From contig DAIDIW010000002.1 in NCBI GenBank assembly GCA_027451665.1, forward strand, positions 212,254 to 276,253: a DNA stretch of 64,000 nucleotides, written 5' to 3'. Below are positions 20,431 through 62,316 of this stretch, piece by piece. Positions within the stretch are counted from its first letter, which is position 1, and every line of letters begins with the position of its first letter. The notes under the pieces are model-generated. The model ran no database searches, had not been told where the DNA came from, and saw nothing but the letters and a program-made list of their open reading frames with translations. Made by a program: the position numbers and the translations under genes. The DNA comes from Candidatus Kaiserbacteria bacterium. Lineage in GTDB: Bacteria > Patescibacteriota > Minisyncoccia > Phycocordibacterales > Phycocordibacteraceae.

Positions 20431-20703
20431 ACGAGCGGCTAATGGATAAATCCAAGGGCGGGTACAGGAAACCCGCCACTAGGAAGGCCTTGCGGCCTCT
20501 ATAGGAGTTTCCCCCTATAACGCGATGAACGCCCTAATGACGGGTTTGCTAGGTTCATCGCGATTTTTGACCATACCTTGCGGCAGAGCGCCACTAGGGT
20601 TAGGTCAGCATCAACCTTTACCGGCTGACGGGTACCATCTTAACACGTCAAAACTCGGCTTTGAAAACAGCTCGAGGAAGCGTAGATTTGAGGCAAAGAT
20701 TCA

Positions 20704-58852: not shown

Positions 58853-58933
58853 ATATGTGCATATTCTACTGCAAAAATGAGCCTCATGCTAGCGTAAGAC
58901 GAGGTGCATTCAGACGCCTAGATAAGGAGTCCC

Positions 58934-59047
58934 GATGAGAATCATCCTCAAGAACCTCGGCGTGCGAGGAGAAGGTTGGGGTGGAGACATTCACCCGATG
59001 ACCGACGAAGGCGAGATCACCGACGGCGGCACACTCCTCTGGGTCTG
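58934..59047 (+). CDS. possible 37-aa small protein
   Basis: AAGGAG RBS 5 nt upstream of ATG. MRIILKNLGVRGEGWGGDIHPMTDEGEITDGGTLLWV. A terminator hairpin lies 30 nt downstream. Confidence 0.3.
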
Positions 59048-59075
59048 AGTCGGATCGCACGGGAAGGGCCGACAG

Positions 59076-59106
59076 GGCGGCGCGTGAGCGACGCGCCGCC
59101 CTTTTC
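59076..59106 (+). terminator. rho-independent terminator
   Basis: gcggcgcgt-gagcg-acgcgccgc followed by CCTTTTC. Confidence 0.5.
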
Positions 59107-59521
59107 ATGCGACGCCGTAACCGGCCTGTGGATACCCGCGCTGCGGGACGCGTCTCTTGCTATGATTCGTTCGTTCGCAGCTCTTTGTGGGCGTTCGCCC
59201 ACCCTGCCCCGCAGCAGCGCGGATGTCGCGAGACGATCCGCAACGAGGAGCAGCTCTCAGTCGCCGGATCACGCTACGGGGTCCGGAGTGACCGGGCGGT
59301 ACCGGAATCGACGGATTCATGGTCCAAGCTCCCGGTCGGGCATTCCTGCCACGCGCGATTACGTGGCCCTTCCCTTCCATGGGAACCCTTTTGACGGCAC
59401 GCCGGACTTCCGGACGTGGCCGTCTTCATTTATAGGACGACGCGTGCTATAGTTCGCCTCGAATGGTGCTGGCAGTAGCGGGGGACTAACCCCCTGCCAT
59501 CGGAGGGCGCTGCCCTCCTGG

Positions 59522-60679
59522 ATGACAGGTACCCTCCGTGAGAATCCGCACCGCCAAGATATGGAAGTAGAAGAGAAGAAGGCTGCGCCGGCAGCCATGA
59601 TGATGCACGTCGCGGAAGGTCACCCTATGGCGGCCTTTATAAACGATATCCCGATGCCGCCGTCTTCTGGCGACCTCGTCGAGGGCACTATCGTCGCTAT
59701 TAATCGCGGCCGCGTGTATGTGGACCTGCCGCCGTTCGGCACCGGCCTTATCTACGGGCGCGAGTACCTGAACGCGGCGGACATGCTGCGCAAGGCGAAT
59801 ATTGGTGATGCGATCAGCGCGAAGGTCGTCGATCCGGCTGGCCGCGACGGCTATATCGAGCTCTCGCTCAAGGAGGCGCGCCAGGCGGCCATCTGGGGCG
59901 AAGCTGAACAGGCTATCGTTGCGGAAACGGTGTACACGATTCCGGTCGAGGAAGCAAACAAGGGAGGCCTCATCCTCTCGTGGCAGGGCATCAAGGGCTT
60001 TCTCCCTGCATCCCAGCTTACAAAGGAACACTATCCGAGGGTCCCTGAGGGCGACAAGGATAAGATACTCTCCGAACTCATGAAGTTCGTCGGCCATCCG
60101 CTCTCGGTCCGTATCATTACCGCCGACCCGAAGGAGGGCAAGCTCATTTTCTCCGAGCGCACCGGCAACGAGGCTGAAGAAAAGGCATCGCTCATCGACA
60201 AGTACCAGGTCGGCGACACGGTTGAAGGCGAAATCACGGGCGTCGTCGATTTCGGCGTCTTCGTGAAGCTCGAGCCGGGTCTCGAAGGTCTCGTGCATAT
60301 CAGCGAACTCGACTGGGGCCTCGTCGAGGATCCTCGCGCGCTCTTCAGCGTGGGCGATGCGGTAAAGGTAAAGGTCATCGAGATCAAGGACGGCAAGGTC
60401 TCGCTCTCCATCAAGGCGCTCAAGGAGAATCCGTGGCACACCGCGGCGGAGCGTTACAAAAAGGGCATGGAGGTACCGGGCGTCATCATTAAGTACAACA
60501 AGCACGGTGCGCTTGCTTCGATCGAGGAAGGCGTCGCCGGCCTCGTACACGTGAGCGAATTCTCTTCCCCGCAGGAACTGCGCGAGAAGCTCGAGCTCGG
60601 CAAGACGTATCCGTTCACCATCTCGCTCTTCGAGCCGAAGGAGCAGCGTATGACGCTCTCCTACGTCGAGAAGAAGTAA
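59522..60679 (+). CDS. rpsA: 30S ribosomal protein S1, 4 S1 domains; start uncertain (59522/59561/59597)
   Basis: Four S1 repeats (GDLVEGTIVAINRGRVYVDL; ...GLILSWQGIKGFLPASQL; GDTVEGEITGVVDFGVFVKL; ...GVIIKYNKHGALASIE). Confidence 0.8.
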   Translation: MTGTLRENPHRQDMEVEEKKAAPAAMMMHVAEGHPMAAFINDIPMPPSSGDLVEGTIVAINRGRVYVDLPPFGTGLIYGREYLNAADMLRKANIGDAISAKVVDPAGRDGYIELSLKEARQAAIWGEAEQAIVAETVYTIPVEEANKGGLILSWQGIKGFLPASQLTKEHYPRVPEGDKDKILSELMKFVGHPLSVRIITADPKEGKLIFSERTGNEAEEKASLIDKYQVGDTVEGEITGVVDFGVFVKLEPGLEGLVHISELDWGLVEDPRALFSVGDAVKVKVIEIKDGKVSLSIKALKENPWHTAAERYKKGMEVPGVIIKYNKHGALASIEEGVAGLVHVSEFSSPQELREKLELGKTYPFTISLFEPKEQRMTLSYVEKK

Positions 60680-60733
60680 CAAGCTTGATAAAAGGATTCG
60701 CCGGACCGCAAAGCGGTCCGGCGTTTTCCGTAC

Positions 60734-61273
60734 TCATACCTTTACCTTGAACCAGCGATACCGGTTTGCCCATCCCGCGTTCCGCCAGTGTTCCTTCCAT
60801 TCCTTATCGGTGAGCCTGAGCGTGAAGTATGCGTGGCATATGCGTATGTACGTCAAGGCTGGATGCGGAAAGGTCCGACTATAGGAAACCCCACCTTTGG
60901 TCGACGTGATCCGTTCAGGATCTACCTTTCGGCCGATCGTCTCGATCAGGTGCATGACGAGCGCCTCGCGCGGATCCATGAGATCCGGAAAGAGATGCGT
61001 GAAGCTCGGCGAAGAAGTACGACTTTCCGTAGGCGTACGATCGGACTCGTCTTTGCCAAGCTTGATGAAGCCCCATGTCCGGCTATGCGCGACCACCTCG
61101 AGCTCCGCACATTGTTCGAAGAGCATGAGACTCTCGTCGTCCGACAATTTCGCATCGAGCTGATGGCAATGGACGGATTCGCATAAATGGTCGAACTGGT
61201 TCAGTGGAATACTCTGTAGCATGCAGCGCTTACGCAGCTCACATTTGAATTGCTCAGCAGTCAACTGGCGCAT
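60734..61273 (-). CDS. hypothetical Cys/His-containing protein
   Basis: Likely start MRQLTAEQFKCELRKRC (ATG 61273). 180 aa. The track ORF's longer 5' end is unsupported. Confidence 0.4.
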   Translation of the reverse strand: MRQLTAEQFKCELRKRCMLQSIPLNQFDHLCESVHCHQLDAKLSDDESLMLFEQCAELEVVAHSRTWGFIKLGKDESDRTPTESRTSSPSFTHLFPDLMDPREALVMHLIETIGRKVDPERITSTKGGVSYSRTFPHPALTYIRICHAYFTLRLTDKEWKEHWRNAGWANRYRWFKVKV

Positions 61274-61359
61274 TGCGTTCTCCCCTGTGATGTTATAGGC
61301 GTACAGTCTGGTGCGAACTATGCACCTCGGGGGGCGCTCCCGCAACGGGTATCGCACCC

Positions 61360-61389
61360 TTGACAGTGCAGAATCGGCTCTAGTAAAGT
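61360..61389 (+). promoter_or_regulatory. candidate sigma70-type promoter (TTGACA - 18 bp - TAAAGT)
   Basis: A perfect -35 hexamer at 61360-61365. The -10-like TAAAGT is at 61384-61389, alternatively TAGTAA with a 15-bp spacer. Confidence 0.35.
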
Positions 61390-61395
61390 GGGGGA

Positions 61396-61552
61396 AGTAG
61401 CTTACCTGCAGCAGCTGTGGCCCAACCTCGGACCGTGGCTTCGTCCCCAGAGTCACGGTCCGAGGAACGGGTCCTTAGAGCCCCTGCACACGAGTCGGAA
61501 GACTCACACTGTTCTTTCTTTTTCCGACCATGTCCTTCGGACATGGTTTTTC
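61396..61552 (+). ncRNA. candidate ~155-nt structured small RNA of unknown family
   Basis: A 12-bp perfect stem (cctcggaccgtg...cacggtccgagg, 61426-61466). A GNRA hairpin gagtc-GGAA-gactc (61492-61505). An intrinsic terminator ccatgtcc-ttcg-ggacatgg followed by TTTTTCTTTT (61528-61556). No + strand ORF is present. Confidence 0.35.
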
Positions 61553-61554
61553 TT

Positions 61555-62316
61555 TTACCCGAGGAATGCCTCGATGCGCCGCCAAAGGTGCGGCTTGAGC
61601 GCACTCGACGCGCCGAAGTGGCCGCCGCGCGGCAGTCCTGAAAATTGTGCGCCCACCTCTTCCGCGAATCGCTTCGCCGGAGCAAACGGCACGACCTCGT
61701 CATCCTTCGCGTGGATGATCATGAGCTTCTTCCCTGCTACTCCTTTCTTCTTGTGCTCCGGGTTGTAAAATTTCCCGCTCGCGAGCTTCCTCCAGACCGA
61801 AACCTTGCCGCGATACGCAGAGCCGAATGCCTCGTGCACGAAGCGCGCCATTATATCGACCGGCTCGGTCGTCTTGTCTTGCGCGCGCCAGTCGATGACT
61901 GGCGAGAGCGCGACCACCTTATTAACGAGTGCATCCCTCGTCGACAGTATCGCCGCCGCTCCGCCGAAGGACGCGCCGATCACATACACTTGCGGATTCG
62001 CGACTTTCAGTACCTTCTGACTCCACGCGTCCATAAAACCCCTCCCGACGCCGTGTACGACTGCGAGGACGTCGTCAGTCGGTTCATGTGCGAGGAACAT
62101 GCCCGCGCTCTCCCAGCTACCTGCGTAGCGCGGGACGAATACCCAATACCCGCGCTCGGCGAGCGTGCGTATCGCTCGTCCGTTCCCACCCGGATACCCC
62201 GGCATTCCCGAGCACAAAACGATTACTTTGCGCGATTTCGTGAGCGGCGCCATGTACTCGCACGCGATGCCGCCGAAACGCGTCCGCCCTGGGTATTTCG
62301 GCAATTCTCGTTTCAT
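61555..62316 (-). CDS. alpha/beta hydrolase (prolyl-oligopeptidase/dienelactone-hydrolase-like)
   Basis: Nucleophile elbow GASFGG, HGxxD-like C-terminal motif IIHAKDDEVVPF...GGHF. Confidence 0.75.
   Translation of the reverse strand: MKRELPKYPGRTRFGGIACEYMAPLTKSRKVIVLCSGMPGYPGGNGRAIRTLAERGYWVFVPRYAGSWESAGMFLAHEPTDDVLAVVHGVGRGFMDAWSQKVLKVANPQVYVIGASFGGAAAILSTRDALVNKVVALSPVIDWRAQDKTTEPVDIMARFVHEAFGSAYRGKVSVWRKLASGKFYNPEHKKKGVAGKKLMIIHAKDDEVVPFAPAKRFAEEVGAQFSGLPRGGHFGASSALKPHLWRRIEAFLG

What the first reader, a model, noticed from the sequence alone, without database searches (positions are those of the whole stretch)
61360..61556. Candidate orphan structured sRNA with its own promoter and intrinsic terminator
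Between two minus-strand genes, the + strand carries a perfect TTGACA -35 with a plausible -10. This is followed by ~155 nt that can form a 12-bp perfect stem, a GNRA-capped hairpin and a strong terminator (8-bp stem, UUCG loop, U-tract). There is no + strand ORF. It does not match SRP RNA (no 5'/3' pairing, no GGAAGCAGC), 6S or tmRNA motifs that I can recognise.
Basis: seen in the sequence. Interest (0 to 1): 0.55.

Follow-up and report, generated by a model that had tools for sequence, protein, structure and literature searches.

The report
Clade-restricted small RNA gene in Kaiserbacteria
A roughly 160-base stand-alone non-coding RNA gene, with its own promoter and terminator, sits between two protein genes of an uncultured Kaiserbacteria-like (CPR) bacterium; it is kept at the same spot in a few close relatives, matches no described RNA family, and probably acts as a base-pairing regulator, though its function is untested.

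Summary
On the + strand, TTGACA-18-TAAAGT (61360-61389) is followed by about 160 nt with no credible ORF. This stretch holds a 16-bp hairpin (61426-61465) with a C-rich loop, a GGAA-capped hairpin, a CU-rich stretch, and a terminator whose T-tract overlaps the stop codon of the convergent hydrolase gene. The fold is stronger than shuffles (z = -5.0).

No Rfam family matches, either here or in the relatives, and ARAGORN finds nothing.

The genome is Kaiserbacteria-like (CPR). The pth-S1 interval is a variable hot spot. Only a small clade carries hydrolase, a ~280-nt gap, then a fast-evolving, degenerate Nudix-like gene.

In all five such lineages the gap carries, on the same strand, a TTGAC-type promoter, a GC hairpin with a C-rich loop, and one to four terminators with T-tracts on that strand only. 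Window, L081 and L084 are alignable. All nine hairpin-arm substitutions between window and L084 preserve pairing, including four compensatory pairs, although synonymous sites are only 50-56% identical.

Verdict: a real, narrowly distributed sRNA gene of a new family. It lies back-to-back with the Nudix-like gene's own conserved promoter. The mechanism, probably anti-Shine-Dalgarno pairing through G-poor C/U-rich unpaired segments, is inferred only. Interest is moderate to low.

The parts
61360..61365 (+). -35 box of the sRNA promoter (TTGACA)
   Evidence: 10 of 12 consensus match. TTGAC is kept in all five lineages at the same relative place, and the scan detects it in L081, L085 and L093.
61384..61389 (+). 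-10 box of the sRNA promoter (TAAAGT, 18-nt spacer)
   Evidence: Counterparts are TATACT (L081), TACTTT (L084) and TATCCT (L085, L093), at 17-18 nt spacing.
61396..61556 (+). Predicted sRNA transcript, about 160 nt. The start is inferred from the -10 box (+/-2 nt) and the end from the T-tract.
   Evidence: No conserved ORF. No Rfam family.
61426..61465 (+). P2, the conserved core hairpin. Arms are 61426-61441 and 61450-61465 (16 pairs); the apical loop 61442-61449 is CGUCCCCA.
   Evidence: It aligns without gaps to L081 and L084, with 4 compensatory pairs and 89.6% of cells paired. The RNAalifold consensus agrees. Model R1 scores 69-71 bits on the three lineages.
61492..61505 (+). Small hairpin GAGUC-GGAA-GACUC (GNRA loop)
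   Evidence: L084 has a counterpart at the same place, GAGCC-AAAU-GGCUC, with one U-A to C-G change. L081 and L085 have none.
61508..61525 (+). C/U-rich, G-poor stretch between the hairpins and the terminator. It is single-stranded only if the upstream GGGGG run is not transcribed.
   Evidence: Unpaired bases are 68-85% pyrimidine and only 4-12% G in all five lineages.
61526..61556 (+). Intrinsic terminator of the sRNA: stem-loop 61526-61548 and T-tract 61549-61556. The tract overlaps the hydrolase stop codon at 61555-61557 on the - strand.
   Evidence: Every lineage has 1-4 such terminators with a T-tract only on the sRNA strand and none on the other strand.
61317..61345 (-). Promoter of the divergent Nudix-like gene (-10 CATAGT 61317-61322, -35 TTGCGG 61340-61345, 17-nt spacer). 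It lies back-to-back with the sRNA promoter, 14 bp between the two -35 boxes.
   Evidence: Read from the sequence. ACTATGC is invariant in alignment A1. TTGCnn/TTGTGC-17-CATAGT is found in six lineages including L095.
60734..61273 (-). Neighbouring gene: 179-aa fast-evolving protein with a degenerate Nudix-like sequence. All five sRNA-bearing gaps found lie next to this gene.
   Evidence: Remote relatives carry PF00293 NUDIX. The window protein itself has no Pfam, NCBIfam or PADLOC hit.
61555..62316 (-). Convergent alpha/beta-hydrolase gene whose 3' end abuts the sRNA terminator (context, not part of the RNA)

Best explanation
This is a genuine, independently transcribed, non-coding small RNA gene of a previously undescribed family, restricted to a small clade of Kaiserbacteria-like CPR bacteria.

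Shown or directly readable:
- A sigma-70-type promoter (TTGACA-18-TAAAGT) fires away from the back-to-back promoter of a degenerate Nudix-like gene.
- The RNA contains no ORF.
- Its conserved core is a long GC hairpin that presents a C-rich loop (CCCC/UCCC).
- It ends at an intrinsic terminator placed right against the 3' end of the convergent hydrolase gene.

Inferred mechanism: the RNA acts by base pairing. Its G-poor, C/U-rich unpaired segments (the apical loop and the linker before the terminator) bind purine-rich Shine-Dalgarno regions of mRNAs and lower their translation. The strong G-rich ribosome-binding site of the divergent Nudix-like gene is the nearest candidate target, but no target is established.
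For: Unit anatomy:
- Promoter, fold z = -5.0, and terminator.
- No conserved ORF in any of the five lineages; all ORFs lack an SD and run through the terminators.

Conservation in place:
- Relatives reached through hydrolase homologues (80-70% identity) have the same order: hydrolase, a gap of roughly 270-350 nt, then the ~185-aa protein.
- In each gap, the strand opposite to these genes carries TTGAC[A/G/C]-17/18-TAnnnT. The scan detects it in 4 of 5 lineages, against 0.0-0.7 expected.
- Each gap also has a 12-16-bp GC hairpin with a C-rich loop and terminators with T-tracts on that strand only. L093 has four in tandem.

Selection on structure:
- Synonymous sites of the adjacent hydrolase are only 50-56% identical.
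- P2 nevertheless aligns without gaps. Window and L084 differ at 9 of 24 arm positions, and all 12 pairs are kept (4 double changes, plus G-U to G-C).
- Sliding the partners by +/-1-3 columns drops pairing from 89.6% to 29-46%.
- L096, 99% identical to L084, has all its differences outside P2, the small hairpin and the terminator.

Mechanism hints:
- Unpaired bases are 68-85% pyrimidine and 4-12% G in all five lineages, with recurring UCCC/CCCC/CUCC motifs.
- The L084 apical loop AAGCCCCU is perfectly complementary to AGGGGCUU at the SD of its neighbour gene.
- The window linker UGUUCUUUCUU can pair, with four wobbles, to AGGGGAGAACG at the neighbour's SD.
Against: - There are no transcription data.
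- Only three lineages (window, L081, L084/L096) are demonstrably homologous. Model R1 does not recognise the L085/L093 hairpin (1.6 bits), so those are positional and architectural analogues only.
- With three sequences the covariation statistics are weak (12 of 500 shuffles reach the observed compensatory count).
- Apart from P2 and the terminator, the folds differ between lineages.
- Folding energy does not favour the sense strand in L084, L085 and L093.
- L095/L089 is nested in the clade by hydrolase identity. L095 keeps the Nudix-like gene with only a 91-nt gap and no sRNA, so the RNA is dispensable there.
- Complementarity to the neighbour's SD is short (6-11 nt), uses different sRNA segments in different lineages, and is no longer than runs found against other nearby genes. 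It is what any C/U-rich RNA would show.
- In window and L081 the P2 stem core CGGACCG/CGGTCCG also occurs in the S1 terminator. P2 could therefore be a duplicated terminator hairpin.
Confidence: 0.55

Rival explanations
1. Cis-antisense regulator, similar to GadY. The hydrolase gene has no intrinsic terminator of its own, so its transcript reads through the gap into the Nudix-like gene. The sRNA is perfectly complementary to that spacer. It pairs with it and directs processing, for example by a double-strand RNase, or it collides with the read-through polymerase. Either way the two genes are uncoupled.
For: - The RNA lies on the opposite strand between two co-directional genes.
- No terminator-like site is found on the hydrolase strand in the gap in any of the five lineages.
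- The sRNA T-tract overlaps the hydrolase stop codon.
- Multiple strong terminators (L085, L093) suggest convergent transcription matters here.
Against: - The Nudix-like gene has its own well-conserved promoter, TTGCnn-17-CATAGT, in six lineages, so it does not depend on read-through.
- A purely antisense role would not need a conserved hairpin with compensatory changes or a C-rich loop.
- L095 manages with a weak hairpin and a 91-nt gap.
Confidence: 0.15
2. A two-part RNA-protein module. The sRNA is the ligand, partner or antidote of the fast-evolving, catalytically degenerate Nudix-like protein encoded next to it, for example a dead-Nudix RNA 5'-end binder or a toxin-antitoxin-like pair. The two co-evolve.
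For: - All five lineages with the sRNA have the Nudix-like gene immediately divergent from it.
- Both are absent together from the sister lineages L090, L091 and L031, and neither was detected in the genome loci L001-L080 (no sRNA match; one weak L033 hit to the protein profile).
- Both evolve unusually fast (21-30% protein identity).
- Some Nudix enzymes act on RNA 5' ends (established knowledge for RppH and NudC).
- Back-to-back promoters allow co-regulation.
Against: - L095 has the protein without the RNA.
- The protein has no hit in PADLOC, NCBIfam or Pfam.
- The structure model is poor (pLDDT 60.6), so no RNA-binding surface can be argued.
- Orientation and the lack of RNA repeats do not fit type III toxin-antitoxin systems.
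- Co-occurrence can be explained by common descent of one inserted segment.
Confidence: 0.1
3. No functional RNA. The promoter-like site is fortuitous or weak. The hairpins are DNA or mRNA-level features: a leftover duplicated terminator, 3'-end stabilisers of the hydrolase mRNA, or insulators in a recombination-prone hot spot.
For: - The pth-S1 interval is a variable hot spot.
- The antisense strand folds about as well.
- The P2 core is shared with the S1 terminator in window and L081.
- The element was lost in L095.
- It is narrowly distributed: no relatives in JGI metagenomes, viral contigs, phages or plasmids.
Against: - A TTGAC box with a 17-18-nt spacer and a TAnnnT box recurs on the same strand at the same place in 5 of 5 lineages, although the surrounding sequence is unalignable.
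- T-tracts follow the hairpins only on that strand.
- All arm substitutions in P2 are pair-preserving despite saturated synonymous sites.
Confidence: 0.12
4. A diverged copy of a housekeeping or otherwise known RNA (SRP RNA, 6S RNA, tmRNA, RNase P RNA, a riboswitch or leader), or a small protein gene.
For: CPR genomes often have atypical versions of universal RNAs (general knowledge). The element contains a GGAA tetraloop hairpin.
Against: - No Rfam hit, even at E<=10, in the window or in four homologous contigs.
- ARAGORN finds nothing.
- The locus is empty in most Kaiserbacteria (pth directly followed by S1), which a housekeeping RNA at a conserved site would not be.
- No downstream gene on the same strand, so it is not a leader or riboswitch.
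- No conserved ORF.
Confidence: 0.03

Closest known systems
RsaE/RoxS and other Firmicute sRNAs with C-rich (UCCC/CCCC) unpaired motifs
   Same: It is a stand-alone ~100-160-nt sRNA with its own promoter and Rho-independent terminator. C-rich motifs sit in a hairpin loop and in a single-stranded stretch, and unpaired regions are G-poor. The expected mode of action is pairing with G-rich Shine-Dalgarno sequences (inference from established knowledge of those sRNAs).
   Different: There is no sequence or structure homology: no Rfam match of any kind. The phylum is different (CPR/Patescibacteria). It is much less conserved, being confined to a handful of metagenome-assembled genomes. Targets are unknown.
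GadY of E. coli (cis-encoded antisense sRNA in the gadX-gadW spacer)
   Same: It is encoded on the opposite strand in the spacer between two co-directional genes. Its 3' end faces the 3' end of the upstream gene. There is no same-strand terminator after the upstream gene.
   Different: The downstream gene has its own conserved promoter. The sRNA carries a conserved, covarying hairpin that a purely antisense RNA would not need. There is no homology to GadY.
Divergently transcribed sRNA-and-gene pairs (OxyS-oxyR, GcvB-gcvA, SgrS-sgrR)
   Same: The promoters are back-to-back, with 14 bp between the two -35 boxes, and an sRNA is on one side (and the sequence reading).
   Different: The partner here is a degenerate Nudix-like protein, not a recognisable DNA-binding transcription factor. 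No shared operator is conserved between the promoters.
Type III toxin-antitoxin RNAs (ToxI-like)
   Same: A small structured RNA tightly linked to a ~180-aa fast-evolving protein, present or absent as a unit in most lineages.
   Different: The RNA is divergent from the protein gene, not upstream on the same strand. It has no tandem repeat units in the window. The protein has no PADLOC hit. The protein occurs without the RNA in L095.

Membership tests
Any described RNA family (Rfam 15, 4227 models) | A covariance-model match at the family's gathering score, or at least a consistent weak match in the homologues | tested here: not met
   Nothing in 61200-61700 at gathering threshold. At E<=10 there are only two chance microRNA-model hits, which pick up the long hairpin. 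Nothing in the homologous gaps of L081, L084, L085 and L093 at E<=1.
Bacterial SRP RNA (4.5S) | Helix 8 with a GNRA loop plus conserved symmetric and asymmetric internal loops, and a match to the SRP models | tested here: not met
   No SRP model hit at E<=10. The long hairpin is a perfect helix without internal loops. Most Kaiserbacteria have no such element at this locus.
6S RNA | A ~180-nt rod with a large central bubble, and a match to the 6S models | tested here: not met
   No hit. The MFE fold is a multi-hairpin structure, not a rod with a central bubble.
tmRNA / tRNA-like | A tRNA-like domain and tag reading frame, detected by ARAGORN | tested here: not met
   0 genes in 61000-61900.
Stand-alone bacterial sRNA gene (generic kind) | Own promoter on the RNA strand | tested here: met
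   Window 10 of 12, L081 11 of 12, L085 and L093 9 of 12. L084 has TTGACG-17-TACTTT, seen by eye and below the scan cut-off.
Stand-alone bacterial sRNA gene (generic kind) | Own Rho-independent terminator on the RNA strand | tested here: met
   Present in all five lineages, on the sRNA strand only.
Stand-alone bacterial sRNA gene (generic kind) | No conserved protein-coding frame | tested here: met
   ORFs differ between lineages, lack an SD and run through the terminators.
Stand-alone bacterial sRNA gene (generic kind) | Conserved structure supported by compensatory changes | tested here: inconclusive
   P2 has 4 compensatory pairs and 89.6% of cells paired, against 29-46% when partners are slid, but with only 3 sequences (12 of 500 shuffles reach the count). 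L085 and L093 are not alignable to the model.
Stand-alone bacterial sRNA gene (generic kind) | A discrete transcript detected | not testable with these tools
C-rich-loop anti-Shine-Dalgarno sRNAs (RsaE/RoxS-like, functional class) | C-rich motifs exposed in unpaired regions | tested here: met
   Loop motifs are CGUCCCCA, UUUCCCCACC, AAGCCCCUCC, UCCCUCU and CCCCUCU. Unpaired G is 4-12% and pyrimidines 68-85%.
C-rich-loop anti-Shine-Dalgarno sRNAs (RsaE/RoxS-like, functional class) | Conserved complementarity to the translation-initiation region of defined targets | tested here: inconclusive
   There is an 8-nt perfect match to the neighbour's SD in L084, but only 6-11 nt (with wobbles) elsewhere, and no better than for other genes.
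Type III toxin-antitoxin | Tandem RNA repeats upstream of, and on the same strand as, an endoribonuclease toxin | tested here: not met
   The orientation is divergent. There are no tandem repeats in 60600-61700. The protein has no PADLOC hit.
NUDIX hydrolases (for the neighbouring 179-aa protein) | Nudix box GX5EX7REUXEEXGU and a PF00293 match | tested here: not met
   No Pfam hit for the window protein. Profile-level relatives are PF00293 proteins and the family profile weakly hits solved Nudix enzymes. However, the box is degenerate in the window clade (for example MHLIETIGR where relatives have a canonical box such as RGILEELGI). The fold could not be confirmed (pLDDT 60.6).

The most novel reading that the evidence does not exclude
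The sRNA and the catalytically degenerate Nudix-like protein form a co-evolving RNA-protein module peculiar to a CPR clade. For example, a 'dead' Nudix fold may have been re-purposed as a reader or holder of the sRNA's 5' end or cap, or the two may form an RNA-antidote and protein pair. They would be transcribed from back-to-back promoters and gained or lost together.
Probability: 0.07. Interest if true: 0.75.

Novelty: new member of a known kind. Interest (0 to 1): 0.35.

Why it matters
Regulatory RNAs of CPR/Patescibacteria are almost unknown. My two literature searches returned mainly TIGR-Tas guide-RNA arrays and one Saccharibacteria transcriptome. These bacteria have tiny genomes and are uncultured. 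A concrete, bounded candidate, with a predicted start, end, conserved hairpin and exposed C-rich loop, gives metatranscriptomic studies something precise to look for. It also suggests that anti-Shine-Dalgarno-type riboregulation may exist in this radiation. The finding further documents usable sigma-70-like promoter signals (TTGnnn-17/18-nAnnnT) in Kaiserbacteria. Its narrow distribution and unknown target limit its wider importance.

Tried and rejected
- Direct sequence search (nhmmer and blastn) of the element against 80 related genome loci found nothing.
- Synteny mapping showed that most Kaiserbacteria have pth next to S1, or unrelated inserts. L031 has the hydrolase but two small ORFs instead of the RNA.
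- The word-based protein search made the neighbour gene look like an orphan. Exhaustive profile search then revealed distant Nudix relatives.
- An HMM of the neighbour family against all locus ORFs found only the known members, plus a weak L033 hit that I did not follow.
- A strict P2 pattern gave 0 hits in JGI metagenomes and viral contigs.
- A relaxed pattern gave 8 JGI hits, all unrelated GC-rich hairpins; the best, L104, is on a planctomycete-like contig.
- BLAST against the phage and plasmid collections gave no match.
- Covariance model R1 found no further copies in 808 kb and did not recognise L085/L093.
- Comparing sense and antisense folding energies did not discriminate the strand.
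- Duplex-energy target prediction was uninformative because of huge interior loops. Longest-run complementarity was not specific.
- The AlphaFold model of the neighbour protein was too poor to use, and the afdb50 library was unavailable.
- The papers found held no usable description of the LOOT motif.
Full report
**Observation.** The region 61274-61554 is the gap between two minus-strand genes.

- Right-hand gene: an alpha/beta hydrolase, 61555-62316 (Pfam Hydrolase_4/Peptidase_S9).
- Left-hand gene: a 179-aa protein whose real start is the ATG at 61273, preceded by GGGGAG. The GTG at 61456 listed by the ORF finder is not the start.

On the + strand the scan finds one promoter-like site, TTGACA (61360)-18 nt-TAAAGT (to 61389). 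It matches 10 of 12 positions, against 0.7 expected in 2 kb. It also finds one intrinsic-terminator-like site: a 10-pair stem at 61526-61548 followed by TTTCTTTT.

Between them lie:

- a 16-pair hairpin (61426-61441 with 61450-61465, loop CGUCCCCA);
- a GGAA-capped 5-bp hairpin (61492-61505);
- a C/U-rich stretch (61508-61525).

The 172-nt segment folds to -77.3 kcal/mol, against -53.6 +/- 4.7 for shuffles (z = -5.0). The complementary strand is nearly as good (z = -4.3).

- The terminator loop is a UUC triloop when read in register.
- The '12-bp perfect stem' is the outer part of a 16-pair helix.
- With a start near 61396, the GGGGG run used by the MFE closing stem may not be transcribed.

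**Not a known RNA.** Rfam 15 gives nothing here at gathering threshold. At E<=10 there are only two chance microRNA-model hits on the hairpin. The homologous regions of four related contigs also give nothing. ARAGORN finds no tRNA or tmRNA. There are no matches in the phage or plasmid collections.

**Organism and context.** Peptidyl-tRNA hydrolase relatives place the window in Candidatus Kaiserbacteria / Paceibacterota, part of the CPR.

- Across 36 such genomes the order lepB | pth | ... | S1 | ... | MBL-fold is conserved.
- The pth-S1 interval varies from about 70 bp to 3 kb.
- The element was not found by sequence search in those 80 loci.

Closer relatives were reached through hydrolase homologues of 70-80% identity and their contigs. 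Five lineages share hydrolase, then a gap of roughly 270-350 nt, then a ~185-aa protein, then S1: the window, L081 (=L082/083), L084 (=L096), L085 (=L086-088) and L093 (=L094).

- The ~185-aa proteins are homologous but only 21-30% identical.
- The exhaustive profile search links them to ~190-aa NUDIX-domain proteins.
- In this clade the Nudix box is degenerate, and no Pfam, NCBIfam or PADLOC model matches.
- The AlphaFold model is poor (pLDDT 60.6).

**Comparative evidence for a transcription unit.** In each of the five gaps, on the strand opposite to the flanking genes, three things recur:

1. TTGAC[A/G/C], a 17-18-nt spacer, and TAnnnT (TAAAGT, TATACT, TACTTT, TATCCT, TATCCT), about 80-105 nt from the neighbour gene's start. 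The consensus scan detects four of the five.
2. A 12-16-bp GC-rich hairpin with a C-rich loop.
3. One to four hairpin-plus-T-tract terminators. None is found on the other strand.

On the other strand, every lineage, including L095, has TTGCnn/TTGTGC-17-CATAGT upstream of the Nudix-like gene. The invariant ACTATGC of alignment A1 is this -10 box. The two promoters are therefore back-to-back and the two transcripts do not overlap. No small ORF is shared, and those present lack an SD and run through the terminators.

**Evidence for selection on RNA structure.**

- The 62 nt around the hairpin align without gaps among window, L081 and L084.
- Of 16 pairs, 7 never vary and 4 show changes on both sides that keep the pair (U-A/C-G, A-U/U-A, C-G/G-C, U-A/C-G).
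- 89.6% of cells pair, against 29-46% when the partners are slid by 1-3 columns. 12 of 500 shuffles reach the compensatory count.
- Window and L084 differ at 9 of 24 arm positions and all 12 core pairs survive, although synonymous sites of the adjacent hydrolase are only 50-56% identical.
- RNAalifold recovers the same helix and the terminator.
- L096, 99% identical to L084, has all its differences outside the hairpins.

**Limits of that evidence.**

- Only three sequences contribute to the covariation.
- The rest of the fold is not shared between lineages.
- A covariance model of the hairpin (R1) finds only its three training sequences in 808 kb. It does not recognise the L085/L093 hairpin, so those two are analogues in position and layout, not proven homologues.

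**Distribution.**

- The RNA was found only next to the Nudix-like gene.
- Both are absent from sister lineages where the hydrolase is followed directly by S1 (L090, L091) or by other ORFs (L031).
- L095 is nested within the clade by hydrolase identity (75% to the window, against 70% for L085). It has the Nudix-like gene with its promoter but only a 91-nt gap and no sRNA. The RNA has therefore been lost there, or gained more than once.
- Pattern scans of JGI metagenomes and viral contigs found no true relatives.

**How it may work.**

- Directly readable from the sequence: a promoter, an RNA without an ORF, a conserved hairpin, and a terminator that stops transcription just before it would run antisense into the hydrolase gene.
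- Inferred: the unpaired parts of the RNA are strikingly pyrimidine-rich (68-85%) and G-poor (4-12%) in all five lineages, with repeated UCCC/CCCC/CUCC motifs, one always in the apical loop. In characterised sRNAs such as RsaE/RoxS, such motifs pair with G-rich Shine-Dalgarno sequences (established knowledge). I therefore favour a base-pairing, translation-repressing role.
- The nearest candidate target is the divergent Nudix-like gene, which has strong G-rich ribosome-binding sites (GGGGAG, GAGGAGGG, AAGGGG, AGGAGGG).
- L084 shows a perfect 8-nt loop-SD match. The window shows an 11-nt run with four wobbles from the CU linker. These matches are short, use different sRNA segments and are not better than those to other genes, so the target is open.

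**Rivals.**

1. A GadY-like cis-antisense role on hydrolase read-through. This is supported by the absence of a same-strand terminator after the hydrolase gene. It is weakened by the Nudix-like gene's own promoter and by the covarying hairpin.
2. An RNA-protein module with the Nudix-like protein. This is supported by co-occurrence and weakened by L095 and the lack of any protein annotation.
3. No functional RNA. This is weakened by the recurrent strand-specific promoter and T-tracts and by the pair-preserving substitutions. It is helped by the fact that the P2 stem core CGGACCG/CGGTCCG recurs in the S1 terminator in window and L081 but not in L084, so P2 may descend from a duplicated terminator.
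4. A diverged housekeeping RNA, leader or small ORF. This is effectively excluded.

**Verdict.** This is most likely a real, clade-restricted sRNA gene of an undescribed family, that is, a new member of a known kind. It is of moderate-to-low general interest. Its main value is as one of very few bounded sRNA candidates in CPR bacteria, and for the unexplained link to a degenerate Nudix-like gene.

Noticed in passing
window 20484-20606 (-): A full-length match to the Rfam LOOT RNA family (RF03000): 80.5 bits against a gathering score of 46.4, E = 1.4e-13. The papers found held no usable description of this motif.
   Followed up: partly
window 58853-59521: A 670-bp ORF-poor divergent gap between the MBL-fold gene and rpsA (S1). 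The last ~129 nt are 78% identical to the region upstream of S1 in L081, so this is probably a conserved rpsA leader. The rest is unique and mildly structured (z = -2.1 and -2.5). It contains a perfect GC hairpin followed by TTTT at 59075-59105 (+), so it may hold another small transcription unit.
   Followed up: partly
window 61317-61345 (-); also L081, L084, L085, L093, L095: The promoter of the Nudix-like gene (TTGCnn or TTGTGC, a 17-nt spacer, then CATAGT) is kept in six lineages although the surrounding sequence is unalignable. This gives a usable picture of sigma-70-like promoter signals in Kaiserbacteria.
   Followed up: yes
window 60734-61273 (-): The 179-aa neighbour looked like an orphan in word-based searches. 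Exhaustive profile search shows it to be a remote relative of ~190-aa NUDIX-domain proteins that have a conserved N-terminal WGxGxAKTLxHL domain. The Nudix box is degenerate in this clade, and members are only 21-30% identical to each other.
   Followed up: partly
window 60699-60723 and 61426-61465; L081 5654-5673 and 4879-4912: The stem core CGGACCG...CGGTCCG occurs exactly twice in the window (0.04 expected): in the sRNA hairpin P2 and in the bidirectional terminator between S1 and the Nudix-like gene, so it flanks that gene. The same holds in L081 but not in L084. This may be a duplicated terminator or a trace of how the segment was inserted.
   Followed up: partly
L093 1746-1890 (-) and L094; L085 4786-4855 (-): The sRNA analogue is followed by four (L093/L094) or two (L085) tandem copies of a terminator-like hairpin with the core GUCCCUCGGGAC plus a T-tract. 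This is a local repeat expansion of terminators.
   Followed up: no
L001-L036, interval between pth and S1: The pth-S1 interval is a hot spot of variable content in Kaiserbacteria, ranging from about 70 bp to 3 kb. Depending on the lineage it carries CYTH-domain, hydrolase, Nudix-like or unrelated small ORFs. The S1-MBL interval is similarly variable.
   Followed up: partly
window 60650-61400: GC content dips to 0.53-0.56 across the Nudix-like gene and sRNA promoter region, against 0.58-0.63 in the flanking genes. This is consistent with an accessory or more recently acquired segment.
   Followed up: no
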